A stretch of 64,000 bases of DNA from Rhodospirillales bacterium (GCA_014324045.1 JACOMY010000015.1:2336-66335); one strand, 5' to 3'. Shown: positions 1 through 15,759, counted from the stretch's first letter. Notes: generated from the letters alone by a model not told the origin. A program made the numbers and translations.

Positions 1-335
1 AGCCTCTGGCTGGAAACCCGCCGCAGGGCACCCGGAAAGATCGCTGGGCAACAAGAATAAATAGCGGCCGGGAATAAACGGCCGAGACGCAGAGCGGGCG
101 CTTTCGCGGCGCGGCCGGAAGGGCTATCGAGCGACCGGCGGCAGCCAAGGGAAGGCCAAAAGGGGATGATCGGCGGGGGGAGCGCCCGCGTCATAGCCCG
201 GCAAAAGATAGCTTGGCATAAAGTCCGTTTGGCAAAAGTATGGGCCGCTCCGGAACGGCGGTCCTCGCTTCGGAGTATCGAGTCCGGGATTGTATCCTAT
301 TTAGGAATCTGGCGTTTTAGGAGTCTGGCTTTCCC

Positions 336-1025
336 ATGCGCAACGGCACCGCACCGGCACGGCCGGCCCTCTCTCCCCTGCTCAAGCTTGTGCTGGAAGT
401 AGGACCGCTCGTCGTGTTCTTCGTCATGAACGCGCGCAGCGGCATCTTCGAGGCCACCGCCGCCTTCATGGTGGCGGTCGCCCTTGCCCTGGCGGCGACG
501 TACATCCTGGCCCGGCAAGTCCCGATTCTGCCGCTGGTCTCGGGCGTCTTCGTCTTGGCCTTCGGGGCGCTAACGCTCTCCCTGAACGACGAGCTCTTCA
601 TCAAGCTGAAGCCGACCGTCGTCAACCTCCTTTTCGGCGCCATCCTCTTCGCCGGACTGGCCTTTGGGCGGCCGCTGCTGCAGCCGCTGCTGGGCTCCAT
701 GCTGCGCTTGACCGGACAGGGCTGGCGGCGGCTGACGGCGATGTGGGCCGGCTTCTTCCTGGTCCTCGCGGTCCTTAACGAGATCGTTTGGCGCAGCTTC
801 CCGACCGACTTCTGGGTCAGCTTCAAGCTGTTCGGGATCATGCCGCTGACCTTGGTCTTCTCCGCCCTTGCCATCTACCTGGTCCGCAAGGAGACAATCC
901 CGGAAGGCGGGGAGCGCCCAGAAGAAAAACACGTGGAAGAAAAGCACGTGGAGGAAAGGCGCGTGAGGGGAAAGCGCCCGGAGGAAAAGCAAAATCCCCC
1001 CGCCGATCGAGGCCCGAAGCCATGA
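336..1025 (+). CDS. yciB: Intracellular septation protein A (YciB/IspZ family) with atypical charged C-terminal tail
   Basis: ORF track 229 aa. Multi-TM pattern (LLKLVLEVGPLVVFFVMN, FGAILFAGLAFGRPLL, WAGFFLVLAVLNEIVW) is typical of YciB. The last ~45 aa are an EEK/HV-rich low-complexity tail encoded by 15-nt tandem repeats. Confidence 0.8.
   Translation: MRNGTAPARPALSPLLKLVLEVGPLVVFFVMNARSGIFEATAAFMVAVALALAATYILARQVPILPLVSGVFVLAFGALTLSLNDELFIKLKPTVVNLLFGAILFAGLAFGRPLLQPLLGSMLRLTGQGWRRLTAMWAGFFLVLAVLNEIVWRSFPTDFWVSFKLFGIMPLTLVFSALAIYLVRKETIPEGGERPEEKHVEEKHVEERRVRGKRPEEKQNPPADRGPKP
921..990 (+). repeat. 15-nt tandem repeat (gaagaaaaacacgtg-like, ~4.5 units) inside the yciB tail
   Basis: Units read at 921-935, 936-950, 951-965 and 966-980, with a partial unit at 981-990. 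They encode EEKHV/EEKHV/EERRV/RGKRP. Confidence 0.7.
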
Positions 1026-1213
1026 CAGAGCCACAGTTCAAAGGAAAAGAGTTCGTCTACAACCGCCATCTGGCGGTGCCCTTCCGCCCGCTGCTGCCCG
1101 GTGAGCGCAAGGCGACCGGCCCGGTTGCGCGCGACGGCAACCCGATTGTCCAGATTGTCTATTTGTCCAGAGGGGACAATCTGCACGCGCTCAAGGCATT
1201 GTTGCCCCGATAG
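1023..1213 (+). pseudogene. Truncated duplicate of the 5' end of the Type III methyltransferase gene (mod stub, 63 codons)
   Basis: MTEPQFKGKEFVYNRHLAVPFRPLLP...GDNLHALKALLPR* parallels the N-terminus of the 4020..5879 product. It ends at TAG 1211-1213, before the DPPY motif, and carries an 18-nt internal duplication at ~1152-1170. Confidence 0.7.
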
Positions 1214-1287
1214 GCAGGTCCCCCGATAGGCCGACAAGGTGGCATGATGCCAGGCAGCGATGCGTCACGCGAAAGGCGGCAAGCGCA

Positions 1288-2667
1288 ATGACGAAGAGCG
1301 ACCTCCCCTTCGGTAGCGAGTTTTCTCCCTCGCAGATCGAGCTTCCCGGGATGCTGCAGCTGCTGGAAGATCGGGCCGGCGATCTGGCGGCCATCGAGGC
1401 GGCGATCCGCCAGACCTACTTCGCGTCACACGGCGGGAGCGACCCTTCGAGAGCGGTAAAGAATCAGAAGACCCTGGCCATGAACAGCCGCCTCGGTCTG
1501 CAAGCCTACGGCATCCTCGACGAAACCGGAAACCTCACCCCCTTCGGCAAAGAGCTTCTGGCAAAAAAGGACGACGAAGCCGATCTCTACAACCTCCTGG
1601 CCAAGCATATATTGCTCGATCTGCACGGTATGACGCTCGTCCGTTGCATCCAGGACATGGTGGCCGCAGGTGAGCAGGTGAACCTGACCACCCTTCGCCA
1701 GGCTCTGGCAGCACGGGGCCTGCACTACCCCCCGGGCGGCAAGCATCCAAGCATGATGCGTCTCTGGCTGGCAAAAGCAGGCGTTTTTTCGGGCAGGCGC
1801 TGGCGGGTCGATCCCCATCGCGTGCAAGCGGTCCTCGGGATCGGCCCGGACGAGTTTGAAGTTCTGGCAGATTTCACGGCCGAGCAGCGAGCGTTTCTTC
1901 GCGCGCTTGCCAACACGGGCGAGACCGCCCCGCAGCCTGCCAACGAGATTGTCCGGCTGGCCACGGCAACTTATGGGGTGCGGTTTCCTGAGAAGAGCCT
2001 TCCGAAGCTGGTACTGCAAGCTCTTGAAGAGGCTGGCTACATCACAGCGGCCAAGACCACGGCAGGACGGGGGGCCAAACCCTTTCTCGTGGCTCCTACA
2101 TCGAAGCTCATCGCGGATGTGATCGACCCCCTCTTGGAGCAGCTTAAAGGCCAGGCCGACCCGAAACTTCTGGCACTTCTGCGCCTGCCACTATCCCAGA
2201 TCCTCGAGGATCTGGACTCGGCAGATCGCTACAAAGCGGGGCTTGCCTTGGAAGCCCTGGCCTTCAAGATCATGCGCCTGCTCGACATGACTTATGTTGC
2301 AACCCGTCTGCGCGCCAATCAGACTGGGGGCGCGGAAGTCGATCTGGTCTTCGAGGCAGCGCGACTGGTGTTCTCACGCTGGCAGGTCCAGTGCAAGAAC
2401 ACCGCCCGTGTTTCCCTGGACGATGTAGCCAAGGAAGTTGGGCTTACGCATTTCATGAAATCGAACGTCATTGTCATGGTCACAACAGGCGAGATCGGCG
2501 GGGAGGCCCGCCGTTATGCCAACGGAATCATGGCCCAATCCAATCTTGCAATCGTCATGCTCGACGGCAAGGATCTAAGCGCAATCGGCACCAGCCCGCC
2601 GGCCATCCTACGCGCCTTCGAGAGAGAAGCGCGGCACGCCATGAGCCTGAAGAAGCTCGACCTCTAG
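1288..2667 (+). CDS. Restriction endonuclease, Mrr-like PD-(D/E)xK C-terminal domain with a long N-terminal helical/wHTH-like region
   Basis: C-terminal GGAEVDLVFEA...WQVQCKN fits the D-x(n)-(E/Q)-x-K nuclease core of the Mrr_cat type. The gene lies 12 nt upstream of a DNA methyltransferase gene. Confidence 0.65.
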   Translation: MTKSDLPFGSEFSPSQIELPGMLQLLEDRAGDLAAIEAAIRQTYFASHGGSDPSRAVKNQKTLAMNSRLGLQAYGILDETGNLTPFGKELLAKKDDEADLYNLLAKHILLDLHGMTLVRCIQDMVAAGEQVNLTTLRQALAARGLHYPPGGKHPSMMRLWLAKAGVFSGRRWRVDPHRVQAVLGIGPDEFEVLADFTAEQRAFLRALANTGETAPQPANEIVRLATATYGVRFPEKSLPKLVLQALEEAGYITAAKTTAGRGAKPFLVAPTSKLIADVIDPLLEQLKGQADPKLLALLRLPLSQILEDLDSADRYKAGLALEALAFKIMRLLDMTYVATRLRANQTGGAEVDLVFEAARLVFSRWQVQCKNTARVSLDDVAKEVGLTHFMKSNVIVMVTTGEIGGEARRYANGIMAQSNLAIVMLDGKDLSAIGTSPPAILRAFEREARHAMSLKKLDL

Positions 2668-2679
2668 GAGCCTGGGCCA

Positions 2680-3798
2680 GTGGAAAAAAACAACGAAGCA
2701 AAGAACGACAAACAGCCAAAAATCTATCGCCGCACGCGGCTTGGCCGGATCGTGCACGGCGATGCACTCGAGGTGATGGCAAAGATGGACGGCGCTTCCG
2801 TCAACCTCATCGTGACCAGCCCGCCCTTCGCGCTTACCCGCAAGAAGGATTACGGCAACGAGCAAGAGGAGGCCTATCTCGAATGGTTCAAGCCCTTCGC
2901 CAAGCAGTTCCATCGTATCCTGAAGGACGACGGGAGCCTGGCGATCGACCTTGGCGGCGCCTGGAAACCCGGACTCCCGGTGCGCAGTCTTTATCACTTC
3001 AAGCTTCTCATCGTACTCTGCGAAGAGTTCGGGTTTCACCTGGCGCAGGAGTTCTATTGGTGGAATCCCTCGAAACTGCCCAGCCCGGCAGAGTGGGTGA
3101 ACATCCGGCGCATCCGGGTGAAAGATGCGATCGACACCGTCTGGTGGCTTGCCAAGTCACCCTGGCCGCGGGCGAACAACCGGCGTGTTCTTCAGCCCTA
3201 CAGCGATAGCATGAAGCATCTTCTGGCAAAGGGGTACAAAGCGATGCTGCGCCCCTCGGGCCACGATATCAGCGAGAAATTCGCCATCGACAATGGGGCA
3301 TCCATCCCGCCCAATCTCATTGCGATCCCGAACACCGAGAGCAACAGCGCCTATCTGCGCTACTGCAAGGCCGGGGGCATCAAGGCACACCCAGCGCGGT
3401 TTCCGGCAGCTTTGCCCGAATACTTCATTCGCATGACGACCGATCCCGGCGACCTGGTGTTCGATCCCTTCGGCGGGAGCTGCGTCACCGGAGAGGTTGC
3501 CGAGCGTCTCGGGCGCAGATGGCTCTGTGCGGAGCTGATCGAGGACTACCTGAGAGGTGCGGTCGGACGCTTCGAGGCGCCGGCGGTGCCGGCAACAGCG
3601 GCCAGGCCCAAGACCAGGTCCAAGAAGGGAGAGGATGACGGCTACTATCGTATCCCGCATCCCGGTCTTCTGTGGAACGGCGGCGATGCGACAGCCTTCG
3701 CCCCCCTCCCGGAAGATGGCGGCTCGAAGCGACCCGCCAAGCACCGCGACAAAGACCGGCCTTCCCGGGATTCTGTTGTAGCCAAGGCTGCAGAATAG
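2680..3798 (+). CDS. Beta-class N4/N6 DNA methyltransferase (N6_N4_Mtase family)
   Basis: Motif IV is IVTSPPF. Motif I is FDPFGGSCVTGEVAERLGRRW, located C-terminal to it (beta-class order). ORF track 372 aa. Confidence 0.85.
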   Translation: MEKNNEAKNDKQPKIYRRTRLGRIVHGDALEVMAKMDGASVNLIVTSPPFALTRKKDYGNEQEEAYLEWFKPFAKQFHRILKDDGSLAIDLGGAWKPGLPVRSLYHFKLLIVLCEEFGFHLAQEFYWWNPSKLPSPAEWVNIRRIRVKDAIDTVWWLAKSPWPRANNRRVLQPYSDSMKHLLAKGYKAMLRPSGHDISEKFAIDNGASIPPNLIAIPNTESNSAYLRYCKAGGIKAHPARFPAALPEYFIRMTTDPGDLVFDPFGGSCVTGEVAERLGRRWLCAELIEDYLRGAVGRFEAPAVPATAARPKTRSKKGEDDGYYRIPHPGLLWNGGDATAFAPLPEDGGSKRPAKHRDKDRPSRDSVVAKAAE

Positions 3799-3826
3799 GC
3801 AGAATAGAGTGACCTTTTTTCGTTGT

Positions 3827-4205
3827 TCCGGGCCGGTTTCAAGCCGTTCCGGATCCTGCCGCCGGCCCCGGTCTGCTCCGCCCTTGCCCTCTACCCGGCC
3901 GGCAAGCAGACGATCCCGGAAGGCGGGAAGCGCCCGGCGGAAAAGCGCATGAGGGAAAGCCCGGAGGAAAGGCCCCCGGAGGAAAAGAAAAATCCCCCCG
4001 CCGATCGAGGCCCGAAGCCATGACAGAGCTACAGTTCAAGGGAAAAGAGTTCGTCTACAACCACCATCTGGCGGTGCCGTTCCGCCCGCTGCTGCCCGAC
4101 GAGCGCAAGGGGATCGGCCCGGTTGCGCTCGACGGCAACCTGATCGTCCAGGGGGATAATCTGCACGCGCTCAAGGCATTGCTGCCCCGCTACGCGGGCA
4201 AGGTG
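3827..4205 (+). repeat. Direct repeat copy B (yciB-tail fragment + 5' end of intact mod)
   Basis: Aligns with 811-1220. It contains the same ATGA stop/start junction at 4020-4023. Confidence 0.8.
3837..4023 (+). pseudogene. Orphan 3' fragment of a yciB-like gene
   Basis: FKPFRILPPAPVCSALALYPAGKQTIPEGGKRPAEK...NPPADRGPKP parallels YciB residues FKLFGIMPLTLVFSALAIYLVRKETIPEGGERPEEK...NPPADRGPKP. No N-terminal part is present. Confidence 0.6.
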
Positions 4206-5879
4206 GACTGTGTTTTCATCGATCCGCCCTACAACACCGGTAACGAAGGCTGGTGCTACAACGACAAGGTCAATGCGCCGATGATCCGCGAATGGCTCGA
4301 AGCCAATCCCATCGGGATCGACGACGGCCTGCGGCACGACAAGTGGTGCGCGATGATGTGGCCGCGGCTCCGGCTATTGCATGATTTGCTGAGCGAAGAC
4401 GGAGTTATCTTCGTAACAATAGATGACTATGAGGTGCACCGTCTGAGATCTCTGCTCGATGAGGTTTTCGGCGGCCAAAACCATGTGGCAACGGTTGTGG
4501 ATCGGCTAAACCCCAAAGGCCGGCACTTGGGAGAGTTTTTCGCAAAGACACACGAATACATCTTAGTTTACGCGAAGAATATCAGCTGGCTTCGACTTAA
4601 TGGCTTAGAAAAGTCAGAGGCGATGGTTTCGGAGTATAACAGAGAGGATGAGGTAGGGCCTTACCGGCCCATAGAGCTTAGAAACAGAAATTCAGCTTTT
4701 AACCCACAAACTAGGCCAAACCTATATTATCCGATCTATGTGAATTCCGAGGACGGCTCGGTCAGTCTCGCAGGGGACGCCGTTTATACCGAGGAAGCCT
4801 TGCCGCTCGATGGCAAGGGCCAACCGACATGCTGGACATGGGGTAAGGAGAAATTCAGGACGCAAAATAAGCTGCTGTTTGCCGAACAAACAAGGGCAGG
4901 CACATGGCGAGTATTCAGAAAAGACTATCTTCACGATGAAGACGGTTCGTCGAACACAACTAAGCCGAAATCTATCTGGTTGGACGATGATTTGAACATG
5001 GATGCGTCACGCTTGACCGTCCGGCAGGTTTTAGGCGAGAATGCTTTCGATTTTCCGAAACCTGTGCCCCTTGTCCAGAGGTGCATAGAGCTTGTTGGCA
5101 ATGAAAATGCTATAATCCTTGATTCTTTCGCCGGTTCGGGCACCACCGCGCACGCCGTCCTGGCAGCCAACAAGCGCGACGGCGGCAACCGGCGCTTTAT
5201 CCTGGTCGAAATGGAGGACTATGCCGACCGGCTGACGGCCGAGCGGGTGCGCCGGGCGATAAAGGGTTACGCCTTCTCGGGCAGGCAGCGCAGGGAGCTG
5301 TTGCGGGAAAAGATCACCTGGTCGGCGCTGCAAAAGGCCGGCAAGCTCATCGAAAGCGTCGAAAAGCTCGAAAACCTGCAGGCCCGCGAATACGACGCCA
5401 TCAAGAAAACCGTCAAGGACGGCGCGTTGATCGTCACCGGCGAAAAGGCCGTCGAGGAACGGGCGGAGGGCCTGGGCGGGCGCTTCACCTATTGCAGGCT
5501 CGGCGACCCGTTGGCGCTGGACAGGGTGCTGCAGGGAACAGGCTTGCCGTCCTATGGCGAGCTCGCTGCTGTGCTCTTCAACATGGCGACCAACGAGGCG
5601 CTCGATCCGGCCAGGGTGCGCGAAGCCGACTTCTATCTCGGCAAGACGGAAGGCCGGCAGGTTTGGTTGCTCTACAAGCCGGATCTGGATTGGCTCAAGT
5701 CGCATGACGCGGCGCTGACGCTGAAGAAGGCCGGGGAGATCGCCGCGGCCGATCCCGGCAGGCGCCATCTGGTGTTCGCGCCTGCCCGCCATGTAAGCCA
5801 GAGGATGCTGGCCGCGAAAAACCTTCCCGTCGAGTTCGTGCCCCTGCCCTTCGCGCTCTACCGCATCGACCGGAGTTGA
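4020..5879 (+). CDS. mod: Type III restriction-modification system methyltransferase (Mod)
   Basis: Motif IV is VFIDPPYNTGNEGW and motif I is ILDSFAGSGTTAHAV, with a variable central region between them. The gene is followed by an overlapping res gene. Confidence 0.9.
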   Translation: MTELQFKGKEFVYNHHLAVPFRPLLPDERKGIGPVALDGNLIVQGDNLHALKALLPRYAGKVDCVFIDPPYNTGNEGWCYNDKVNAPMIREWLEANPIGIDDGLRHDKWCAMMWPRLRLLHDLLSEDGVIFVTIDDYEVHRLRSLLDEVFGGQNHVATVVDRLNPKGRHLGEFFAKTHEYILVYAKNISWLRLNGLEKSEAMVSEYNREDEVGPYRPIELRNRNSAFNPQTRPNLYYPIYVNSEDGSVSLAGDAVYTEEALPLDGKGQPTCWTWGKEKFRTQNKLLFAEQTRAGTWRVFRKDYLHDEDGSSNTTKPKSIWLDDDLNMDASRLTVRQVLGENAFDFPKPVPLVQRCIELVGNENAIILDSFAGSGTTAHAVLAANKRDGGNRRFILVEMEDYADRLTAERVRRAIKGYAFSGRQRRELLREKITWSALQKAGKLIESVEKLENLQAREYDAIKKTVKDGALIVTGEKAVEERAEGLGGRFTYCRLGDPLALDRVLQGTGLPSYGELAAVLFNMATNEALDPARVREADFYLGKTEGRQVWLLYKPDLDWLKSHDAALTLKKAGEIAAADPGRRHLVFAPARHVSQRMLAAKNLPVEFVPLPFALYRIDRS

Positions 5880-8527
5880 CGCCGATGTTTCGCCAGCTCG
5901 ACTATCAGGACCGGGTGCTGACCGCAATCGACCGCTATCTCGACCGGCTGAAGACCGAAAAGCAGGCGGCCGAGGAGGTGGCGGAGCTTGCCGCGGGCAA
6001 GCCGCATCTGAAACTGCCGGTCCCCGACTTCGCACAAGCAACCTGGGCGGCCTTGCAGGCGGCAGGCCAGCTTCCCGCGTCGCGCGCCGCCATCGACTAT
6101 TCCGAACGCCGGGACGGCTGCGGCTATCCGGTCCCCAATATCGTGCTGAAGGTGCCGACCGGCGGCGGCAAGACCTGGCTCGCCGTCTCCGGGATCTCGC
6201 GGATCATGGGGCGCTATCTTGAGCGGAACAGCGGCTTCGTGCTGTGGATCGTGCCGAACGAGGCGATCTATAGCCAGACACTGAAGCAGCTGAAGGACCG
6301 CCAGCACCCTTACCGCCAGGCCCTCGACCGCACCGCCGCCGGGCGCGTGCGGATCATGCAAAAGAGCGACCGGCTCGACGCCCGCGATGTGGAGACCAAC
6401 CTTTGCGTCATGCTGCTGATGCTGCAATCGGCGAACCGGCAAACCCGGGAGACCCTGAAGATGTTCCGGGACCGGGGGGACGTGCAGGGGTTTTTCCCGG
6501 CCGAGGGCGAACAGCAGGCGCACAAGGCAGCGCTCGGCCAGACGCCGAACCTGGAGGCTTACGACGGCATCTTCCCGATGGTGAAGGACTCGCTCGGCAA
6601 CGCCTTGCGGATTATCCGGCCCGTGGTTGTGCTGGACGAAGGGCACCGGGCTATTTCCGATCTGGCCTTCCAGACGCTCTACGGCTTCAACCCCTGCTTT
6701 GTGCTCGAACTGACGGCCACGCCGCAGGACCTGCAAGCGCGCGGCGGCAGCAACCCGCGCAAAGACCGCTCCGCCAATCTGCTGGTAGAGGTGACCGGCC
6801 GCGAACTGGATCGCGAAGGCATGATCAAAATGCCGCTCAACCTCGATCCCAGACAGGGCAGCGACTGGAAGGCCACGCTCGACGCGGCGCTGGAGACCCT
6901 GCGGGCGCTGGAGGCATCGGCCGCGGCGCTGCGGGCCGACAGCGGCCGCTATATCCGCCCGATCATGCTGGTGCAGGTAGAGCGCACCGGCGCCGGGCAG
7001 CGCGACAGCAACCGCATTCACGCCGAAGATGTGAAGGACCGGCTGCTGACCGCCGGTTTCGGCGCCGCCGAGATCGCCATCAAGACGGCCGAACGGAACG
7101 ACCTTGCCCAGCCCGAAAACCAGGACCTGCTGTCGCCCGCCAACCGCGTGCGGGTCATCGTCACCAAGCAGGCGCTGCAGGAAGGCTGGGACTGCCCCTT
7201 CGCCTATGTGCTCTGCGCTCTGGCCGCGAGCAGCGACGCGAAGGCCATGACGCAGCTGGTGGGGCGCATTCTGCGCCAGCCGGGGGCGATGAAAACCGGC
7301 ATCGAGGCTCTGGACGAATGCCATGTTGTCACCCACCGCGCCGATACCGCCAGCGCGGTCGAGGCAATCAAACAGGGCCTGGAACAAGACGGGCTCGGGG
7401 ATTTGGTCTTGCGCCTGCGGCAGGAGGATAGCCAGGGCGCGGCCGGGGCGGCCCGGAAGATCGAGCGCCGCCCGGCATTCGCTTCGGCAAACATCCACCT
7501 GCCGCAAGTCATGCTTGCCGAAGACGGCGAGGTCCGCGAGCTGGACTATGAAACCGACATTCTCTCCGCCATCGACTGGCGCGGCTTCGATCCCGCCGGG
7601 ATCGCAAAGGGCATCCCGGACAACGCGCAAGCCGCCGATAGCCGGCGGCAGCGGATCGGACTGGCCCAGGAAGGAGCAGACAGGGGAGCAGATGCGGGAG
7701 CGGACGAGGAAGCGGCAGCCTTCGTAGCGGAAAGCCTCGACCGGAATGCGGAGGTCTTGCGCTTCGATCCGGTGCAGGCCGTCCTCATGCTGTCCGACCT
7801 TGTGCCCAACCCCTTTGTGGCGCGTGAGATTGTCGGGGCGCTGTTGCAGGCCCTGCGCGCCCGCGGTTTCGGCGAAGACAAGCTCGGCCGCTGTGCCGGC
7901 CTGATCCTGTCCGAACTGCGCCGGGGGCTGGACCGGGCGCAGACCGAACGCGCCGAGGCCCTGTTCAAGGCCGGGGTGGCCGCAGGCCGGATCCAGTTTC
8001 GTTTGCGCCTGGACGGGCGCAACTGGCGCATGCCGGACAGGATGGAAACGGCCGAAGCGGAGGGCGCGCGCCAGCTCTTGAGCAAGACCGGCGGGCCGCT
8101 GGCAAAAAGCCTCTTCGCCCCGGTCTACGAAGCCGGGTTGAACCGGGACGAACGGGAGGTAGCCCTATACCTCGACGCCGAACCAGCCCTGATCTGGTGG
8201 CATCGCAACCTAGCCCGCAGCCAATACGGCATTCAGGGTTGGAAGAAGGGCAAAATCTATCCCGACTTCATCTTCGCCCTGGAGCGCAAGGGGGGCGCCA
8301 AGCGCATCACCATTCTCGAAACCAAGGGGGACCAGCTCGACAATCTCGACAGCGCCTACAAGCGCAAGGTCCTGGACTTGCTTTCCGATCGTTTCGCCTG
8401 GGATAGTTGCATCCCGGCGGGCCAGTTCGAGCTTGTGCAGGACAATGGCGAGAGGGTGGAGGGCACCTTGATCCTGATGAGCGAATGGCGGACAAAACTG
8501 CCGAAGCATCTGCGTGCGGAAGCCTAA
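5876..8527 (+). CDS. res: Type III restriction enzyme, Res subunit (SF2 helicase + PD-(D/E)xK nuclease)
   Basis: Motifs seen: KVPTGGGKTW (Walker A), VVLDEGHRA (DExH), ELTATP, QEGWDCPF, VGRILR, and C-terminal YPDFIF...ILETKGD. A TTG at 5876 overlaps the mod stop; an alternative ATG lies at 5885. Confidence 0.9.
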   Translation: MTPMFRQLDYQDRVLTAIDRYLDRLKTEKQAAEEVAELAAGKPHLKLPVPDFAQATWAALQAAGQLPASRAAIDYSERRDGCGYPVPNIVLKVPTGGGKTWLAVSGISRIMGRYLERNSGFVLWIVPNEAIYSQTLKQLKDRQHPYRQALDRTAAGRVRIMQKSDRLDARDVETNLCVMLLMLQSANRQTRETLKMFRDRGDVQGFFPAEGEQQAHKAALGQTPNLEAYDGIFPMVKDSLGNALRIIRPVVVLDEGHRAISDLAFQTLYGFNPCFVLELTATPQDLQARGGSNPRKDRSANLLVEVTGRELDREGMIKMPLNLDPRQGSDWKATLDAALETLRALEASAAALRADSGRYIRPIMLVQVERTGAGQRDSNRIHAEDVKDRLLTAGFGAAEIAIKTAERNDLAQPENQDLLSPANRVRVIVTKQALQEGWDCPFAYVLCALAASSDAKAMTQLVGRILRQPGAMKTGIEALDECHVVTHRADTASAVEAIKQGLEQDGLGDLVLRLRQEDSQGAAGAARKIERRPAFASANIHLPQVMLAEDGEVRELDYETDILSAIDWRGFDPAGIAKGIPDNAQAADSRRQRIGLAQEGADRGADAGADEEAAAFVAESLDRNAEVLRFDPVQAVLMLSDLVPNPFVAREIVGALLQALRARGFGEDKLGRCAGLILSELRRGLDRAQTERAEALFKAGVAAGRIQFRLRLDGRNWRMPDRMETAEAEGARQLLSKTGGPLAKSLFAPVYEAGLNRDEREVALYLDAEPALIWWHRNLARSQYGIQGWKKGKIYPDFIFALERKGGAKRITILETKGDQLDNLDSAYKRKVLDLLSDRFAWDSCIPAGQFELVQDNGERVEGTLILMSEWRTKLPKHLRAEA

Positions 8528-8651
8528 ACGGGAAGACCGACTCTGCGGCCGGAGAGGGCGCCGCCTCCCGGGCCGAGCGGTCCGGTTCTGAGAAAGCCGT
8601 GGCCGCTGGAGCATAGCAGCGATAGAATGCAGGAGGAAGAAGGAGAAAGCT

Positions 8652-8924
8652 ATGAAACACTGTTTAATAGTAGCCGCCTGTCTCGGCGTGCTGGGTGGAT
8701 GTGATCGTACTCCGCTTAGAATAGCCGATCTGGGACCAAGCCAGGTCGTCGTGGAAGTTTCCGACCATTGGACGGCTCCTAAGGTGTCTCAAGCAGAAAT
8801 AGACCTTAAGGCAGAACAGGGATGTCAAGCTTATGGAAAAACGGCGCGTTTTTTAACAAAAAATGACCCCGACAGCTGGAGCATCCCATTCGGCCAACAT
8901 ATCTACGATTGCATAGATCCATGA
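8652..8924 (+). CDS. Small lipoprotein (hypothetical), paralog 1
   Basis: Signal peptide with lipobox: MKHCLIVAACLGVLGGC. SD aaggag lies upstream. GC is lower than in the neighbours. Confidence 0.6.
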   Translation: MKHCLIVAACLGVLGGCDRTPLRIADLGPSQVVVEVSDHWTAPKVSQAEIDLKAEQGCQAYGKTARFLTKNDPDSWSIPFGQHIYDCIDP

Positions 8925-9220
8925 TGAGCGAAAATCGGGAGAGGATCGTGAAATATCGTCCGATCACGGCAGTCCTTATAGTCTTACTGGGCGGGTGCGT
9001 CAATCCCTATCCTAAAATTATCAAGGTCAACGCTGATCAGGCGATCATTCAGACCCATCCGAGCGTATCGGAGGAGGCTGTCGAACGGAAGGCCGAGGAA
9101 GCCTGCGCGCTTTATGGGAAAAAGCCGCAGTTGGTGTATATTGAACTCACTAGTCTCCTCATACCGGAGCCTTCGGAGAGGAATCACTTCTTCGCCTGCG
9201 TCGAGCAAGCGGCGGAATGA
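8921..9220 (+). CDS. Small lipoprotein (hypothetical), paralog 2
   Basis: Lipobox IVLLGGC. The ATG at 8921 overlaps the TGA of the upstream gene (ATGA). It shares a KAE..C..YGK...H.F.C pattern with paralog 1. Confidence 0.55.
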   Translation: MMSENRERIVKYRPITAVLIVLLGGCVNPYPKIIKVNADQAIIQTHPSVSEEAVERKAEEACALYGKKPQLVYIELTSLLIPEPSERNHFFACVEQAAE

Positions 9221-9711
9221 CAGGCCGACTCTGGGCGGCTGCCGTCCTGGCGGTGCTGGCGCTTTCCGCCGGGCCGGCACAGGCACAATCCGGCGGCAGC
9301 GAAACCATCGAGGGCCCTGCCAGCGTTACCGACGGCGACAGCATCGAGATAGACGGCCGGCGGATCCGCCTGTACGGGATCGATGCGCCCGAGTTCGAAC
9401 AGAGCTGCCGCACCGCCGCGGGCCGTGTCTGGCGCTGCGGGCAGGAGGCTGCGGCGGCACTGGCCGGCAAGATCGGCAGCGCGCCGGTGACTTGCCAAGT
9501 CCGCGGCAACGATGGCCGCGCGGTCGCCGTTTGCCGGCAGGGCGGCGCCGATCTGAACGCCTGGCTGGTGCAGCAAGGGCTGGCACTGGCTTACCGCTAT
9601 TTTTCCACCGACTACCTGCCGGAAGAAGAGAACGCCCGGCGCGCCCGCCGCGGTCTGTGGCAAGGCGCCTTCGTCAAGCCTTGGAACTGGCGGCGGGGCA
9701 AGCGGCTTTAG
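9217..9711 (+). CDS. Secreted thermonuclease (staphylococcal nuclease/SNase family)
   Basis: Signal peptide AVLALSAGPAQAQ. VTDGDSIEIDGRRIRLYGIDAPE and the C-terminal ARRARRGLWQG are typical of the SNc fold. The ATG overlaps the upstream stop (ATGA). Confidence 0.8.
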   Translation: MTGRLWAAAVLAVLALSAGPAQAQSGGSETIEGPASVTDGDSIEIDGRRIRLYGIDAPEFEQSCRTAAGRVWRCGQEAAAALAGKIGSAPVTCQVRGNDGRAVAVCRQGGADLNAWLVQQGLALAYRYFSTDYLPEEENARRARRGLWQGAFVKPWNWRRGKRL

Positions 9712-9752
9712 GCCCGGCCGAACCGGCGGGAGGCAGACGCGGTGCTATCCAC

Positions 9753-11215
9753 CTGCGACTCGACGGAGAGGGTAGTCCATGAGTAACGACGAGCAGGAAG
9801 GATCTGTTGCGATGACCGGCAAGCCCAGCGAACGAAACATTCCGGTGGAGCGTCTTGTCCTCGACCTGGAGAACCCTAGGCATGGGGAATTGGACACGGA
9901 GCAGGAGGCAATCGAATTCCTCTGCTCCAACGAGGATGTGATCCCGCTTGTCCGCGATATTGCGCGATATGGGTTAAACCCGATAGATCGCTTGGCGGTC
10001 GTAATTGACAACGGCGACGATGGGCCGGAGGGTAACTTCGTTGTGGCCGAAGGCAACCGAAGGCTCTGCGCCATTAAACTCCTTACCGGCCCGGCTCTGG
10101 CGCCGAGCCAGCATAGGGATGCTGTCGAAAAAGCCGCCGCGGATTGGACGCCAATCACCGAAATCTCCTGTGTGGTTTTCGACGATAAAACTGCCGCTCG
10201 CCTCTGGCTTGCAAGACGCCACCAAGGATCCTTAGGCGGTGTCGGATTTAAGCCATGGAATGCCGAACAAAAGGCAAGGCACAGCGATGTATCTTCGCGA
10301 AATCGGGTGGCGCAGGCTTTTCTCGACTGGGCGGAGAAGAAAGGGTTGATAACTCCCGAAGACCGGTTGGGACGCCTGACCACAGTTCAGAGATATCTGA
10401 GCAATTCCACGATGCGCCAGGCGATGGGGATCGATGCGAGCGATCCGAACGATGTCCGCCGCACCCGGCCGGGAGGCGACATGAATTTACTGGCGCAGCG
10501 CTTCATCGGCGACCTGTTGAGCGGTGAGGTGACGTCGCGGCATAAAAAAGCCGATATCGAGCGTTATGCCGGGAAACTGGATTCACTTCCGGGACTGTCC
10601 TATAAACGGGTCGATCCACAGCTCTTGGCAAAAAAACCGCGAAATCTTAGAAAGATAAGCAGGCACCCTGAGATTGACCAAAAGCTTCAAGAACTGAACG
10701 ATCAGAAGCTATGCAGTCTCTATAATTCCATCACAACGATTTCGGCTAAGGCACACATGCCTCTTATTGCGGTTGGCGTCTGGGCGTTTTTCGAAACGCT
10801 GACGGCGCTCCTCGGCAGAGATCCGAAGACCAGTTTTTCAAGCTTCTTGAACAAGCAGTATCTGGAAAAACAGGGCCTCGATGCGGGCGACAACAGAGCG
10901 ATGCGCGAGGCAATTGGGCGCATTCATGCTTACGGAAACACGACCAAACATCATTACACATTAGCCGCTTTCAACGCAGAGCAGCTCGAAGACGACATGA
11001 CAACATTGAGCGGTCTAATCGCAAAATTGATCGAACGCGCGCCACGCGATTCATAACTCCGATCCCCATTGGCCGAAGGGATTTTCCGTTGCTATCGAGT
11101 GCTTGAACGGAAAACGTAAAAGGCGGCTGTCGTCCGGCTTCGCCTGCGGAAGATCGGTGGTTACGGTCCCATGGCAGGCATGGAGCGCCAGGCCCCGATA
11201 CTGCGCAGTGCGCCC
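9753..11215 (+). repeat. Tandem duplication unit 1 (ParB-like gene + downstream spacer)
   Basis: Collinear with 11334-12844, from ctgcgactcgacggaga through the ORF to ...catggcaggcatggagcgccaggcc..gatactgcgcag. Confidence 0.8.
9779..11056 (+). CDS. ParB/Srx-fold N-terminal domain protein with uncharacterised C-terminal domain (paralog 1)
   Basis: IPVERLVLDLENPRHG and FVVAEGNRRLCAIKLL match the ParB-like nuclease/NTPase domain signature (GxRR). ORF track 425 aa. Confidence 0.7.
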   Translation: MSNDEQEGSVAMTGKPSERNIPVERLVLDLENPRHGELDTEQEAIEFLCSNEDVIPLVRDIARYGLNPIDRLAVVIDNGDDGPEGNFVVAEGNRRLCAIKLLTGPALAPSQHRDAVEKAAADWTPITEISCVVFDDKTAARLWLARRHQGSLGGVGFKPWNAEQKARHSDVSSRNRVAQAFLDWAEKKGLITPEDRLGRLTTVQRYLSNSTMRQAMGIDASDPNDVRRTRPGGDMNLLAQRFIGDLLSGEVTSRHKKADIERYAGKLDSLPGLSYKRVDPQLLAKKPRNLRKISRHPEIDQKLQELNDQKLCSLYNSITTISAKAHMPLIAVGVWAFFETLTALLGRDPKTSFSSFLNKQYLEKQGLDAGDNRAMREAIGRIHAYGNTTKHHYTLAAFNAEQLEDDMTTLSGLIAKLIERAPRDS

Positions 11216-11300
11216 GGATCTCATCTTCACCGAAGAGTCCCTGTCCTGGCCGTTTGAGGAGGGCGAGGACGGCGTGTGGCGATTGAAGCCGGCAGAGTGA
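11197..11300 (+). pseudogene. 3'-terminal remnant of a pentapeptide-repeat gene
   Basis: Encodes ...SLSWPFEEGEDGVWRLKPAE*, nearly identical to the C-terminus of the 13039..13857 product (GLSWPFEEGEDGVWRLKPTE*). No repeat region is present. Confidence 0.65.
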
Positions 11301-11333
11301 TTAGGGGTCCTGCCGCAGGCGGCAGTGTCCCGG

Positions 11334-12844
11334 CTGCGACTCGACGGAGATGGTTAGTCTATGAGTAACAACGAGAAGGAAGGATCTGTTGCGATGACCG
11401 ACAAGCCCAGCGAACGAAACATTCCGGTAGAGCGTCTTTTCCTCGACCTAGAAAACCCTAGGCATGGGGAATTGAGGACAGAGGAAGAAGCAATCGAATT
11501 CCTCTGCTCCAACGAGGATGTGGCCAAGATTGCCGGCGATATTGCGGAGCATGGGCTAAGCCCGATAGATCGCTTGGCGGTCGTAATTGACAACGGCGAC
11601 GATGGGCTGGAGGGTAACTTCGTTGTGGCCGAAGGCAACCGAAGGCTCTGCGCCATTAAACTCCTTACCGACCCGGATCTGGCGCCGAGCGAGCATAGGG
11701 GTGCTGTCGAAAAGGCCGCCGCGGACTGGACGCCAATTGCCGAAATCTCCTGTGTGGTTTTCGACGATAAAACTGCCGCTCGCCTCTGGCTTGAAAGACG
11801 CCACCAAGGATCCTTAGGCGGTGTTGGATTGAGGCCATGGAATGCCGAACAAAAGGCAAGGCACAGCAGTGGATCTTCGCGAAATCGGGTGGCGCAGGCT
11901 TTTCTCGACTGGACGGAGAAAGAAGGGCTGATAACTCGCAAAGACCGCAAACGCCGTCTGACCACGGTCCAGAGATATCTGGGCAATCCCATCATGCGCC
12001 AGGCGATGGGGATTGATGCGAGCGATCCGAACGATGTCCGCCGCACCCGGCCGGAGGCTGACATGAAGTTACTGGCGCAGCGCTTCATCGGCGACCTGCT
12101 GAGCGGTGAGGTGACGTCGCGACATAACAAATCCGAAATCGAATCTTATGCTCGGATGCTGGAATCGCTCCAGGGATTATCCGGTGAAGAGGTTGATCCG
12201 CCGCTATCCTTGAACCCCCCTTCCGCTTCCCAGGACCCATCGGACCCGCCAGGAAAACCGAAAAAGCCCGAAAGATCTACAAAGATAAAGCGGGACCCCA
12301 AGATTGACGAAAAGCTTCAAGAACTGAACGATCAGAAGCTAAGCAGTCTCTATAATTCCATCACAACGGTTCCGGTTAATAAACACACACCCCTTGTTGC
12401 AATTGGCGTTTGGGCCTTCTTCGAAACGCTGACGGCGCGCCTCGGCAGAGATCCGAAGACCAGTTTTTCGAGCTTCTTAAGCAAGCAATACCTGGAAAAA
12501 CAGGGCCTCGATGCGAAGGAAATCGAAGGCTTGGACGAGCCAATTGGGCGCATTCATGCTTACGGAAACACGACCGAACATCATCACACAGTAGCCGCCT
12601 TCAATGCAGAGCAGCTCGAAAACGACATGGCGGCGTTGAGCGGTCCGATCGCAAAGTTGATCGAACGCGCGCCACGCGATCCATAACTTCGATTGCCGCC
12701 GGCCGAAGCGGTTTACCTTTGCTATCGAGTGCTTGAACGGAAAACACAAAAGGCGGCTGTCGTCCGGTTTCGCCTGCGGAAGATCGGTGGTCACGGTCCC
12801 ATGGCAGGCATGGAGCGCCAGGCCGATACTGCGCAGCGCGCCCC
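11334..12844 (+). repeat. Tandem duplication unit 2 (ParB-like gene + downstream spacer)
   Basis: See unit 1. In this copy the spacer continues into an intact pentapeptide-repeat gene. Confidence 0.8.
11361..12686 (+). CDS. ParB/Srx-fold N-terminal domain protein (paralog 2)
   Basis: Same motifs as paralog 1 (LENPRHG, AEGNRRLCAIKLL). It differs mainly by a Pro-rich insert (PPLSLNPPSASQDPSDPPGKPKKPERS) in the linker. 441 aa. Confidence 0.7.
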   Translation: MSNNEKEGSVAMTDKPSERNIPVERLFLDLENPRHGELRTEEEAIEFLCSNEDVAKIAGDIAEHGLSPIDRLAVVIDNGDDGLEGNFVVAEGNRRLCAIKLLTDPDLAPSEHRGAVEKAAADWTPIAEISCVVFDDKTAARLWLERRHQGSLGGVGLRPWNAEQKARHSSGSSRNRVAQAFLDWTEKEGLITRKDRKRRLTTVQRYLGNPIMRQAMGIDASDPNDVRRTRPEADMKLLAQRFIGDLLSGEVTSRHNKSEIESYARMLESLQGLSGEEVDPPLSLNPPSASQDPSDPPGKPKKPERSTKIKRDPKIDEKLQELNDQKLSSLYNSITTVPVNKHTPLVAIGVWAFFETLTARLGRDPKTSFSSFLSKQYLEKQGLDAKEIEGLDEPIGRIHAYGNTTEHHHTVAAFNAEQLENDMAALSGPIAKLIERAPRDP

Positions 12845-12941
12845 GGAGTTCCTTATGCCGATGCAGGATCGGAGGGGCTCCCGGTTCGGTCTGGCGGTGT
12901 ATCCATGCCATGGCTATGGCGCTGTCCGTAAAGCGGGTCGA

Positions 12942-12957
12942 GCGGACCATGGTCCGC
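12942..12957. repeat. Perfect 16-bp palindrome GCGGACCATGGTCCGC (copy 1)
   Basis: Read directly from the sequence; self-complementary. Confidence 0.9.
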
Positions 12958-13038
12958 TGCCTGCCAGGCTGTCAGGTTCGGGCCGCAGAATGCGGCGATG
13001 GTTGGAGCTTAATCGATAAGGCGGAAGGATGAGACGCT

Positions 13039-13857
13039 ATGAGAGCAATGACGTGGATGGCCGCTGCCTTGGCGGCGGCGCTGGCGGGGCCGGGCTCGGC
13101 GGCCGCACAGGAGACCTGGCGGGGCGCGGATCTCTCCTCCACGGACTTCTCCGACGCGATCCTCCGCGGCGTCGATCTCGCCTACGCGAACCTCGAAGGC
13201 GTGAACCTCGAAGGCGCGAACCTCGAAGGCGCGAACCTCGAAGGCACGTACCTCTCCGGCGCGGACCTTTCCATCGCTGACCTCGCCGGCGTGCAACTCC
13301 GCGGCGCGCACCTCGCTGACGCGGACCTCTCCGGCACGGACCTCTCCGGCGCGGATCTCGTTGTCGCGAACCTCGCTGACGCGGACCTCACCGGCGCGAA
13401 CCTCTCCGCCGCGGACCTTACTGTCGCGCACCTCTCCTCCGCGGATCTCACCGGCGCGGACCTCACCGGCGCGGACCTCACCGGCGCGTACTTCTACTCC
13501 GCGGACCTCGCTGACGCGGACCTCATCGACGCGAACCTCACCGGCGCGGATCTCATCGACGCGAACCTCTTCGCCGCGGACCTCGAAGGCGCGGACTTCT
13601 CCTCCGCGAACCTCTCCTCCGCGGACCTCGCTGACGCGATCTTCATCATCGCGAACTTCATCGACGCGAACCTCATCGACGCAAACCTCGAAGGCGCATA
13701 CCTTGAAGACGCGCGCCTCTACGGCGCGACCGGCCTGACGCAGGAGATGCTGCGCAGTGCCCGACCCTCGCCCCCGCCCTCCAGTCTGCCGGAGGGCTTG
13801 TCCTGGCCGTTCGAGGAAGGCGAAGACGGCGTGTGGCGATTGAAGCCGACGGAGTGA
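13039..13857 (+). CDS. Pentapeptide-repeat protein with N-terminal signal peptide
   Basis: MRAMTWMAAALAAALAGPGSAAAQ is followed by ~40 A(D/N)LxG-type pentapeptides. C-terminal ATGLTQEMLRSA...LSWPFEEGEDGVWRL. Confidence 0.85.
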   Translation: MRAMTWMAAALAAALAGPGSAAAQETWRGADLSSTDFSDAILRGVDLAYANLEGVNLEGANLEGANLEGTYLSGADLSIADLAGVQLRGAHLADADLSGTDLSGADLVVANLADADLTGANLSAADLTVAHLSSADLTGADLTGADLTGAYFYSADLADADLIDANLTGADLIDANLFAADLEGADFSSANLSSADLADAIFIIANFIDANLIDANLEGAYLEDARLYGATGLTQEMLRSARPSPPPSSLPEGLSWPFEEGEDGVWRLKPTE

Positions 13858-13868
13858 TCGCTTGCGGA

Positions 13869-13884
13869 GCCGACCATGGTCCGC
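13869..13884. repeat. Palindrome copy 2 (GCCGACCATGGTCCGC, one mismatch)
   Basis: Read directly. It lies 12 nt after the PRP stop. Confidence 0.8.
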
Positions 13885-13963
13885 TGCGTGCCGGGCGGTC
13901 TGGTTCGAGCCGGAGAAGGCCATGGTCGTCGAGGCGTAGCAGCGAGACAAGGATGGAGAAGGC

Positions 13964-14069
13964 TATGAAACATCATCTGATCGTGGTAATGATAGTGGCG
14001 GCGCGCGGCGGGAAGGTCTTCGTCGAAAGTGCCGACAAAACCGAAAAGACCGAGCTGGTAGTCCTGTGA
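13964..14069 (+). CDS. Small ORF (34 aa), possibly a degenerate lipoprotein-signal remnant
   Basis: MKHHLIVVMIVAARGGK... is preceded by the same leader and SD (ggagaaggctATG) as the lipoprotein at 8652. Its stop overlaps the GTG of the next ORF (GTGA). Confidence 0.25.
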
Positions 14070-14671: not shown

Positions 14672-14703
14672 GCCCTGGTTGAGAAAAGAACTAGCTAAGA
14701 GAG

Positions 14704-15471: not shown

Positions 15472-15759
15472 TCGCCTTGTCGGGCGGCATGACGTGGCTG
15501 GGGTCTTTCGCCTATTCGAGCGCGTTCATGGCGGCCTAGAGACAGGCAGGATTCGGGCCGTCTCTGTCGGCGGCCATGGCGGCCCGGAGTCTGTCGATGT
15601 CACGCTGGAGGAAGCTCAGGTTCGGTTGCTTTCGGTTTTGTAGCAGGTCCGCCTAGTTTCCCGGTCGTTAAAGGTCCATTCGGACCCCACCTTGCGGCTG
15701 GGGGGCAGACGCCCCCATCTTCGGTTTCGGGGGCAGCGTGCCGCCCGGGGCCTTGGGAA

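What the first reader, a model, noticed from the sequence alone, without database searches (positions are those of the whole stretch)
811..4205. Type II R-M gene pair bracketed by diverged ~0.4-kb direct repeats that duplicate the yciB-3'/mod-5' junction
Seen: 811-1220 and 3827-4205 align over their full length. By eye they are roughly 80-90% identical; this was not computed. Each copy holds the end of a YciB-like ORF, the ATGA stop/start overlap, and the first ~60 codons of a Type III mod gene. Copy A has the intact yciB but only a mod stub (TAG at 1211). Copy B has only a yciB tail but the intact mod. The 2.6 kb between them is exactly one REase gene plus one MTase gene. Short direct repeats sit at both inner junctions: ccccgataggc at 1205 and 1221, and cagaatag at 3791 and 3800. 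Established: R-M units inserted with long target duplication were described from Helicobacter pylori genome comparisons (Kobayashi laboratory). Inference: a mobile Type II unit invaded the junction of a resident Type III locus, or recombined in from a diverged homologous locus. The divergence between the copies argues against a recent simple duplication.
Basis: partly seen in the sequence, partly recalled or inferred. Interest (0 to 1): 0.62.

Follow-up and report, generated by a model that had tools for sequence, protein, structure and literature searches.

The report
Old restriction-modification insertion with duplicated target
A two-gene DNA restriction-modification cassette sits between two decayed ~0.4-kb copies of the junction of two host genes in a sponge-symbiont bacterium; this is an old, well-preserved example of a known way such cassettes enter genomes, not a new kind of element.

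Summary
Window 810-1242 and 3826-4206 are direct repeats. The core local alignment (810-1218 vs 3826-4198) has 409 columns, with 88% identity over aligned bases and 80% with gaps. It scores 434 against at most 29 for shuffles. Each copy spans the yciB 3' end, the ATGA stop/start overlap and about 63 codons of a Type III mod gene.

Between the copies lie an Mrr-type REase and an M.PvuII-like m4C MTase. They are a left-truncated copy of a widespread, partly plasmid-borne RHH-REase-MTase unit.

Divergence between the copies is polarised. The redundant halves (mod stub in copy A, yciB tail in copy B) carry the radical, mostly AT>GC changes, indels and a stop. The functional halves match outgroups.

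A sister lineage (genes 92-95% identical) has the same yciB-stub-REase arrangement, and a third strain has the same stub/insert junction. So the insertion is old, and age plus relaxed selection explains the divergence without a diverged donor locus.

No empty-site allele was found, so the defining comparison could not be made.

[quoted passage not shown] It is a new member of a known kind, of moderate to low interest.

The parts
336..1025 (+). yciB/ispZ (septation protein A), intact. Its 3' 216 nt lie in repeat copy A. It has a C-terminal low-complexity tail about 30 aa longer than in relatives.
   Evidence: Pfam IspA E 4e-55. NCBIfam NF001323 scores 245 bits against a cutoff of 196. Alignment with relatives.
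810..1242 (+). Direct repeat copy A: a functional yciB 3' end, the ATGA overlap and a decayed mod 5' stub.
1022..1213 (+). Mod stub, a pseudogene of 63 codons ending in TAG at 1211-1213. Homology to mod continues to 1242. It contains an 18-nt insertion (1154-1171) and a 16-nt tandem duplication (1219-1234).
   Evidence: The stub is 50/63 identical to the resident Mod and 44-46/62 to any other Mod homologue. Its changes hit residues conserved in all homologues. The TAG is specific to this strain.
1238..1291 (+). Remnant of the last ~17 codons of an RHH (CopG-like) gene. Its stop overlaps the REase ATG (ATGA). This is the left end of the inserted unit.
   Evidence: 9/17 identical to the RHH C-terminus of L088, in the right position and frame. 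The sister lineage remnant is 8/14 identical, E 0.001, in frame. RHH is intact upstream of the REase in L088, L089 and L178. The evidence in the window alone is weak.
1288..2667 (+). Type II REase candidate: a C-terminal Mrr_cat PD-(D/E)XK nuclease domain and a ~300-aa N-terminal region of unknown fold.
   Evidence: Pfam Mrr_cat E 8e-10, residues 320-431. 72-91% identical homologues are always followed by the same MTase. No PDB or PADLOC hit.
2680..3798 (+). Type II DNA methyltransferase, M.PvuII-like (N4-cytosine class, SPPF motif).
   Evidence: PDB 1boo (M.PvuII) E 8e-105 over residues 18-298. PADLOC MTase_II E 1.5e-120. Pfam N6_N4_Mtase.
3790..3825 (+). Right end of the insert: a 9-nt tandem duplication GCAGAATAG x2 (3790-3807, includes the MTase stop) followed by an 18-nt spacer of unknown origin.
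   Evidence: DNA homology to other copies of the unit ends at 3799.
3826..4206 (+). Direct repeat copy B: a decayed yciB 3' remnant, the ATGA overlap and a functional mod 5' end.
3826..4023 (+). yciB 3' remnant, a pseudogene fragment still open as a 66-codon ORF from TTG at 3823. It carries 17 nonsynonymous codon changes in 40 codons, mostly L>P, V>A and W>R at conserved transmembrane residues.
991..1031 (+). Longest identical stretch between the copies (41 nt, equal to 3989-4029). It spans the yciB stop and mod start and appears as a single shared unitig in the assembly graph.
4020..5879 (+). Type III mod, intact at 619 aa, with a DPPY motif.
   Evidence: PADLOC MTase_III E 1e-204. Full-length homologues of 605-650 aa, the best at 69% identity.
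5876..8527 (+). Type III res, intact.
   Evidence: PADLOC REase_III E 3.5e-179, covering profile positions 5-857 of 883. Pfam ResIII.

Best explanation
In an ancestor of this sponge-associated alphaproteobacterium, a resident Type III mod-res operon directly followed yciB, with an ATGA stop/start overlap. A linear fragment of a horizontally mobile RHH-REase-MTase unit then inserted at that junction. The unit's MTase is M.PvuII-like (m4C) and its REase has an Mrr-type nuclease domain. The fragment's left end lay inside the RHH gene.

The insertion duplicated about 0.4 kb of target, from yciB codon 159 to mod codon ~63, so that one copy flanks each side. Because the duplicated segment spans the stop of yciB and the start of mod, both host genes stayed intact. 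The left copy completes yciB and the right copy starts mod.

The two redundant halves, the mod stub on the left and the yciB tail on the right, have since decayed under relaxed selection. They show GC-biased substitutions, slippage indels and, in this strain, a stop codon.

The cassette has no terminator or recognisable promoter of its own. It lies co-oriented in an operon-like array: yciB, stub, R, M, remnant, mod, res.

Shown: the anatomy, the foreign origin and truncation of the unit, the polarity of decay, and the age of the event. Inferred: the joining mechanism (illegitimate end joining at two sites about 0.4 kb apart, or on sister chromatids) and the current activity of the R-M system.
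For: - **Repeats.** They are real and highly significant, and not confined to low-complexity sequence.
- **The unit is foreign and mobile.**
  - REase homologues at 72-91% identity occur with the same MTase in unrelated contexts. These include a Roseivivax plasmid and a site between ribD and ribE in another organism.
  - The host's own YciB finds nothing above 84% identity.
  - GC3 is 0.72-0.75 in the unit, against 0.83-0.85 for yciB and res.
- **The left end is not an element terminus.** DNA homology to other copies runs only from 1271 to 3799. The RHH gene, intact in L088, L089 and L178, is reduced to its last ~17 codons.
- **The junction is lineage-specific.** None of 160 yciB loci from relatives has mod, res or the R-M unit nearby. 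The closest Mod (69%) sits in another context. Both repeat copies must therefore derive from this lineage.
- **The stub derives from the resident mod.** It is closest to the resident Mod (50/63, against at most 46/62 for other homologues).
- **Polarity of divergence.**
  - In the yciB part, copy A equals the sister lineage at 22 sites where copy B differs; only 3 sites go the other way. Of those 22 changes, 16 are AT>GC, and they hit conserved residues.
  - In the mod part, all stub amino-acid changes hit positions conserved across homologues.
- **Nested history.**
  - The sister lineage L179-L181 has the same yciB-stub-REase arrangement. It shares the 18-nt insertion site and D27G with the window stub, and lacks the TAG.
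  - Strain X2 shares some window-specific stub changes and lacks others.
- **Precedent.** Repeat length, repeats spanning start or stop codons, and a Type III M gene as target are all reported in PMC2853133.
Against: - No empty-site allele was found, so the 'target' is inferred and not observed.
- All three lineages known to carry the yciB-mod junction also carry the insert.
- Three stub sites (1081, 1202, 1210) in strain X2 show the mod state where the window and the sister share a derived state. This needs homoplasy or gene conversion.
- The yciB part (about 19-21% divergent) is more diverged than the mod part (about 7-11%). I attribute this to AT-rich second codon positions relaxing toward high GC, but unequal histories of the two halves are not excluded.
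- The molecular mechanism that creates long target duplications is unknown, in the literature as well.
Confidence: 0.7

Rival explanations
1. Campbell-type integration. A circular molecule carrying the R-M unit plus one copy of the yciB/mod junction integrated by a single homologous crossover into an empty yciB-mod site of a related strain. Such a circle could arise by recombination between the repeats in another strain of the same lineage. The copy-to-copy divergence would then partly reflect donor-recipient divergence.
For: - It would give the same X-insert-X structure, with the non-functional halves both donor-derived.
- A 41-nt identical core spans the junction where a crossover could have occurred.
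- Kobayashi's hypothesised life cycle includes release and re-invasion.
- Three X2 stub sites conflict with a simple tree.
Against: - The redundant halves carry radical changes (L>P in transmembrane helices, an in-frame insertion, losses of conserved residues) that a functional donor junction would not have.
- 12 of 17 polarised stub-mod differences arose after the split from the sister lineage, so the ancestral stub was much closer to mod.
- The yciB-mod junction is known only in this lineage. A long-target-duplication event in the lineage is therefore still required first.
Confidence: 0.12
2. Two steps. The R-M unit first inserted simply into mod at about codon 63, inactivating it. Later an intact yciB'-mod-res segment from a sibling cell was joined in, by homology on the right and illegitimately on the left. 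This restored mod and created the apparent duplication.
For: It gives the same final structure. The 18-nt spacer of unknown origin at 3808-3825 could be filler from an illegitimate join.
Against: It needs two rare events where one suffices. There is no trace of a mod 3' part or a second res copy left of copy B. There is no obvious selection to restore a Type III mod.
Confidence: 0.08
3. Chance insertion between pre-existing repeats. A ~0.4-kb tandem duplication of the junction arose first, and the R-M unit later landed exactly at its novel joint.
For: 'Chance insertions between repeated sequences' is a recognised class of flanking repeats.
Against: Tandem duplications of this size are unstable. 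Hitting the joint exactly is improbable. The segment has only these two copies in 64 kb.
Confidence: 0.04
4. Assembly artefact or chimera of two strains.
For: The source is a metagenome. The copies share a 41-nt unitig, and one contig begins at the repeat (L005).
Against: - Three independent assemblies are identical.
- Unitigs of even ~11x depth link each diverged copy to its own unique flank.
- A sister lineage and strain X2 independently show the stub-insert junction.
Confidence: 0.01

Closest known systems
[quoted passage not shown] 2000, Gene 259:99; Furuta, Abe & Kobayashi 2010, NAR 38:2428, PMC2853133)
   Same: - An R+M gene pair without integrase or transposase.
- Flanked by long direct repeats (46-423 bp reported) that derive from the target.
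- Repeats span a gene start or stop, so the target genes stay intact.
- Insertion into operon-like arrays.
- One reported target is a Type III M gene.
   Different: - The copies here are much more diverged (80-88% against 93-100% in the published tables).
- The event is old enough to be shared by lineages 5-8% apart.
- The decay can be polarised.
- The host is an uncultured sponge-associated alphaproteobacterium.
- No empty-site genome is available, whereas the published cases were defined by one.
PvuII R-M system (M.PvuII, PDB 1BOO)
   Same: The MTase is a close sequence relative of M.PvuII (E 8e-105). It has the SPPF motif typical of N4-cytosine MTases (own knowledge). A small upstream regulator gene is present in intact copies of the unit.
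   Different: The REase is not R.PvuII-like. It is a 459-aa protein with a C-terminal Mrr_cat domain and no solved relative. The upstream regulator is an RHH protein, not an HTH C protein (own knowledge of C.PvuII). Specificity is unknown.
Mrr-family Type IV restriction enzymes
   Same: The C-terminal Mrr_cat PD-(D/E)XK domain. The sequence shows a D...QxK-like motif (VDLV...VQCK; read from the translation, interpreted from own knowledge).
   Different: Here the nuclease is always paired with a cognate-looking MTase 10-14 nt downstream, and in intact copies it is preceded by a regulator. That is the organisation of a Type II system, not of a solitary methyl-dependent Type IV enzyme.
Transposon or IS insertion with target-site duplication
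   Same: An insert flanked by direct repeats of target sequence.
   Different: The repeats are about 0.4 kb, not 2-14 bp. There is no transposase and no terminal inverted repeats. The left end of the insert lies inside a truncated gene.

Membership tests
[quoted passage not shown] 2010) | The inserted sequence contains both R and M gene homologues. | tested here: met
   Mrr_cat REase at 1288-2667 and M.PvuII-like MTase at 2680-3798.
[quoted passage not shown] 2010) | The insert is shorter than 20 kb and has no other mobile-element genes (integrase, transposase, prophage, tRNA target). | tested here: met
   The insert is about 2.6 kb and holds only R, M and an RHH remnant. No tRNA in 1-22 kb. 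No long inverted repeats.
[quoted passage not shown] 2010) | Flanking direct repeats are longer than 30 bp. | tested here: met
   810-1242 vs 3826-4206. Score 434 against a shuffle maximum of 29.
[quoted passage not shown] 2010) | Both repeats align to a single-copy sequence at an empty site in a related genome. | tested here: inconclusive
   - No relative with an uninterrupted yciB-mod junction was found. Searches covered the GTDB species set, JGI metagenomes, the 5.8-billion-protein database and the sponge runs.
- The sister lineage and strain X2 both carry the insert.
- More distant relatives lack the whole R-M region.
[quoted passage not shown] 2010) | The repeat is not a multicopy genomic repeat. 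| tested here: inconclusive
   Only two copies in the 64-kb window. The rest of the genome was not available.
Type II restriction-modification system | Separate, adjacent REase and MTase genes that are conserved as a unit. | tested here: met
   The same pair occurs in L088, L089, L090-L097 and L178, with gaps of 10-14 nt.
Type II restriction-modification system | The REase cleaves at a defined site that the cognate MTase protects. | not testable with these tools
   This needs enzymology or methylome data. Only domain-level evidence is available.
Type III restriction-modification system (mod-res) | A Mod MTase with a Type III architecture, followed by an overlapping Res helicase-nuclease. | tested here: met
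   PADLOC MTase_III E 1e-204 and REase_III E 3.5e-179. The mod stop at 5879 overlaps the res start at 5876. Full-length alignment to homologues.
YciB/IspZ septation protein A | A match to the equivalog model above its curated cutoff. | tested here: met
   NF001323 scores 245.1 bits against a cutoff of 196.
DNA transposon / IS with target-site duplication | A transposase gene, terminal inverted repeats and short target-site duplications at the insert ends. | tested here: not met
   No transposase domain and no inverted repeats. The short direct repeats are tandem duplications inside the stub and at the MTase stop.

The most novel reading that the evidence does not exclude
The cassette may not be a passive passenger. 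In the sister lineage the mod stub is fused in frame to the RHH tail and ends in an ATGA overlap with the REase start. This gives an unbroken chain of stop/start overlaps: yciB, then the stub::RHH' fusion, then the REase. The same unit sits promoter-less and co-oriented inside a riboflavin operon elsewhere, again with a truncated RHH.

This family of R-M units might habitually enter at gene junctions of host operons, shed its own regulator and plug into host transcription and translation. Long target duplication would be the means of doing so without killing the host genes. The conserved 41-nt core across the junction would allow precise excision.
Probability: 0.1. Interest if true: 0.55.

Novelty: new member of a known kind. 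Interest (0 to 1): 0.35.

Why it matters
- **An old example with a readable history.** Published cases have nearly identical repeats. Here three lineages give a time series. The redundant halves decay with a strong AT>GC bias and slippage indels. The regulator gene is lost. In one strain the REase is cleanly deleted while the MTase stays.
- **Use in studying pseudogene relaxation.** The locus is a natural illustration of how a high-GC genome relaxes a newly redundant sequence.
- **Use in studying R-M fate.** It shows how an invading R-M system is domesticated or eroded inside a defence island.
- **Limits.** It does not change how R-M mobility is understood.

Tried and rejected
1. **Empty-site search.**
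   - A YciB scan of the GTDB species genomes gave at best 63-68% identity and no R-M next to yciB.
   - An exact 26-nt junction pattern gave 0 hits in JGI metagenomes.
   - A YciB scan of metagenomes gave at most 63% identity and no R-M.
   - The protein database yielded only one closer lineage, and it also carries the insert.
2. **Excision product in reads.** An apparent joint from 1051 to 4050 in run X1 is explained by short unitigs through the shared 41-nt core and by foreign mod homologues from other symbionts. I rejected it as evidence of excision. Contig-level data cannot resolve this question.
3. **Foreign origin of the stub.** Other mod genes in the same sponge metagenome are 84-89% identical in this region. 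Three or four stub sites coincide with their states. However, the stub is closest to the resident mod (92% nt; 50/63 aa). I rejected a foreign origin.
4. **Short junction repeats as target-site duplications.** Rejected.
5. **Long flanking repeats around other copies of the unit.** None in L089, L090 or L178. L088 has only a 42-nt hairpin-containing repeat. Long target duplication is therefore not a constant property of this unit.
6. **Fetching runs for the sister lineage.** The aim was to see its MTase, remnant and mod.
7. **Promoter and terminator scan.** Nothing convincing on the + strand in 1-9000.

Full report
**1. Observation.**
A local alignment of 700-1300 against 3750-4300 recovers 810-1218 vs 3826-4198. 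It has 409 columns: 328 identities, 45 mismatches and 36 gap columns. The score is 434, against a mean of 21 and a maximum of 29 for 300 shuffles. BLASTN gives 83.4% over 344 nt.

The similarity is not confined to the GA-rich tail:
- yciB transmembrane part: 78/96.
- Junction plus mod part: 164/176.
- Part after the indel: 42/47.

A global alignment shows that homology resumes after a 16-nt insertion in copy A and runs to 1242, which equals 4206 in copy B. The longest identical run is 41 nt (991-1031 = 3989-4029) and spans the ATGA overlap.

**2. Genes.**
- yciB (336-1025) passes the NCBIfam equivalog cutoff.
- 1022-1213 is a 63-codon mod stub ending in TAG.
- 1288-2667 encodes a 459-aa protein with a C-terminal Mrr_cat nuclease domain.
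- 2680-3798 encodes a close relative of M.PvuII, the N4-cytosine MTase (PDB 1boo, E 8e-105; PADLOC MTase_II).
- 3826-4023 is a yciB tail remnant.
- mod (4020-5879) and res (5876-8527) are full-length Type III genes.

All lie on the + strand. No + strand terminator-like sites and no convincing promoter were found in 1-9000.

**3. The short 'junction' repeats.**
- CCCCGATAGGC at 1205 and 1221 is a 16-nt tandem duplication inside the stub. Mod homology (CAAGGTGG) follows it.
- GCAGAATAG at 3790 and 3799 duplicates the last two MTase codons and the stop. Other copies of the unit end ...GCGGAGTAG once.
- Both are slippage events, not target-site duplications.

**4. The insert is a truncated copy of a mobile three-gene unit.**
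The REase has many homologues at 72-91% identity across Alphaproteobacteria and beyond. By contrast, the host's YciB finds nothing above 84%.

The REase-MTase pair recurs in unrelated contexts:
- Next to a resolvase (L089).
- Between ribD and ribE of a riboflavin operon (L090-L097).
- On an 18.8-kb Roseivivax marinus plasmid (L178).

In L088, L089 and L178 an intact RHH gene precedes the REase and overlaps it. L090 has a partial copy.

In the window, DNA homology to the closest unit runs only from 1271 to 3799. Only the last ~17 RHH codons remain (1238-1291), ending in the native ATGA overlap. The sister lineage supports this reading (E 0.001, in frame). The left end of the insert is therefore a break inside a gene, not an element terminus.

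GC3 of the unit is 0.72-0.75, below yciB and res at 0.83-0.85.

**5. Polarity of the divergence.**
- *Mod part.* Every amino-acid difference of the stub (L4P, H15R, D27G, G31A, I32T, L37R, L41P, a 6-codon insertion, Y>stop) falls on a residue conserved among Mod homologues, and copy B keeps the consensus. The stub is nevertheless closest to the resident Mod (50/63, against at most 46/62).
- *yciB part.* Copy A matches the conserved YciB C-terminus. Copy B has W>R, four L>P, V>A, F>C and others. That is 17 nonsynonymous and 3 synonymous codon changes in 40 codons.
- *Spectrum.* With the sister lineage as third sequence, 22 sites have copy A = sister ≠ copy B, against 3 the other way. Of the 22, 16 are AT>GC. 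This is what relaxation of formerly constrained first and second codon positions should look like in a genome with GC3 around 0.85. It also explains why the T-rich transmembrane part diverged faster than the mod part.

**6. Relatives and age.**
The organism comes from sponge metagenomes.

A sister lineage is known from three sources: L179-L181, that is JGI 3300012788, ENA ERZ23486361 and NCBI MAG GCA_014323885.1. It is 92-95% identical in genes and syntenic upstream. It has the same yciB - mod stub - REase arrangement, although its contigs end 153 nt into the REase.

Its stub compares with the window stub as follows:
- It shares the 18-nt insertion site and D27G.
- It keeps TAC where the window has TAG.
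- It is fused in frame to the RHH tail.

In the mod part 1022-1218, 12 differences are specific to the window stub and 9 to the sister stub. Only 5 separate both stubs from mod. The insertion therefore predates the split of these lineages, by roughly 1.4-2.5 times the split age on these small counts. That figure is an inference.

Run X2 holds a third strain, about 97% identical. Its stub contig crosses the stub/insert junction. It has a further 18-nt insertion. It shares some window-specific changes (1116, 1131, 1143, 1177) but not others (1102, 1113, 1213, 1216). Three sites (1081, 1202, 1210) conflict and need homoplasy or gene conversion.

More distant relatives (YciB at most 73%) have no R-M genes after yciB. 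Synteny with them resumes only at about 17.9 kb.

No uninterrupted yciB-mod junction was found anywhere.

**7. Population variation.**
In X2 a contig joins 1338 to about 2661, and depth is zero over 1362-2631 while the MTase is covered. This is an in-frame deletion of REase codons 18-458 that leaves the MTase. It rests on one low-depth Logan contig plus the coverage gap.

No reliable evidence for excision of the cassette was obtained. The shared 41-nt unitig makes contig data uninformative.

**8. Context.**
The ~17 kb between yciB and the next syntenic gene is a defence island. It holds the two R-M systems, an SNase-like nuclease, two tandem PD-Lambda-5_A paralogues and pentapeptide-repeat proteins.

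**9. Mechanism and rivals.**
The most economical account is a single illegitimate insertion of a linear R-M fragment with about 0.4 kb of target duplication, followed by neutral decay of the redundant halves (confidence 0.7).

Campbell-type re-integration of an excised circle from a related strain gives the same structure and cannot be excluded. But it still requires a prior long-target-duplication event in this lineage. It is also disfavoured by the post-split accumulation of most stub changes (0.12).

A two-step insertion-then-repair route (0.08), chance insertion between pre-existing repeats (0.04) and artefact (0.01) are less likely.

**10. Comparison with the known.**
Furuta, Abe and Kobayashi (PMC2853133) describe exactly this class:
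- R-M genes without other mobility genes.
- Flanked by 46-423-bp direct repeats at 93-100% identity.
- Often spanning a start or stop so that target genes survive.
- Including insertion into operon-like arrays and into a Type III M gene.
- The mechanism is unknown and is suspected to involve double-strand breaks.

The present case meets the structural criteria. The empty-site criterion could not be tested.

What differs is age and state. The repeats are only 80-88% identical. The event is shared by diverged lineages. The unit has lost its regulator and, in one strain, its nuclease.

Verdict: a new member of a known kind.

Noticed in passing
window 1339-2660 (run X2): A sister strain in a second sponge run appears to have an in-frame deletion of REase codons 18-458, with the MTase retained. 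One contig joins 1338 to ~2661, and depth is zero across 1362-2631. This would turn the Type II system into a solitary m4C MTase.
   Followed up: partly
L179 4612-4890 (also L180, L181): In the sister lineage the mod stub is a 92-codon ORF fused in frame to the RHH C-terminal remnant. ATGA overlaps link yciB to the stub and the stub to the REase, forming a chain of translational-coupling signals. All three assemblies break 153 nt into the REase.
   Followed up: partly
window 4200-5100: The central part of mod, presumably the target-recognition domain, has 49-52% GC against 60-66% in the rest of mod and in res. This suggests a separately acquired or swapped recognition domain.
   Followed up: no
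window 8500-17900: The rest of the island after res contains:
- An SNase-like nuclease (9217-9711).
- Two tandem paralogues matching PD-Lambda-5_A (9779-11056 and 11361-12686, 83-90% nt identity in blocks).
- Pentapeptide-repeat proteins (13039-13857 and 14704-15471, with 15-nt periodic repeats).
- Several ORFs with no family.

Synteny with relatives resumes at the esterase gene at 17942-18874.
   Followed up: partly
window 900-1020: YciB here has a C-terminal low-complexity extension (EEKHVEEKHVEERRV...) about 30 aa longer than in relatives with 63-73% identity. Its 15-nt repeats vary between lineages: 15 nt are missing in X2 and 45 nt in the sister. The tail runs into the mod start, as if the native yciB stop was lost when mod-res arrived.
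   Followed up: partly
L088 50-91 and 3281-3322: The closest copy of the R-M unit (REase 91% identical) is flanked by a 42-nt direct repeat at 90% identity that contains a hairpin (ACCCCTnnTAGGGGT). The repeats enclose RHH, R, M and a 70-aa ORF. Whether this is a target duplication, an att-like site or a REP element is unknown.
   Followed up: partly
L090 9536-12922 (and L091-L097): The same R-M unit (78% REase identity), with a truncated RHH remnant, is inserted co-oriented between ribD and ribE of a riboflavin operon in another organism. It has no detectable flanking repeats.
   Followed up: partly
window 4019-4400 (runs X1, X2): The same sponge metagenomes hold other, more abundant contigs with mod genes 84-89% identical to this mod 5' region but with different upstream sequence. 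Related Type III systems therefore circulate among co-resident symbionts.
   Followed up: no
window 29559-29757: A tandem pair of 97-nt repeats (89% identity) in a GC-rich, probably coding region. Not examined.
   Followed up: no
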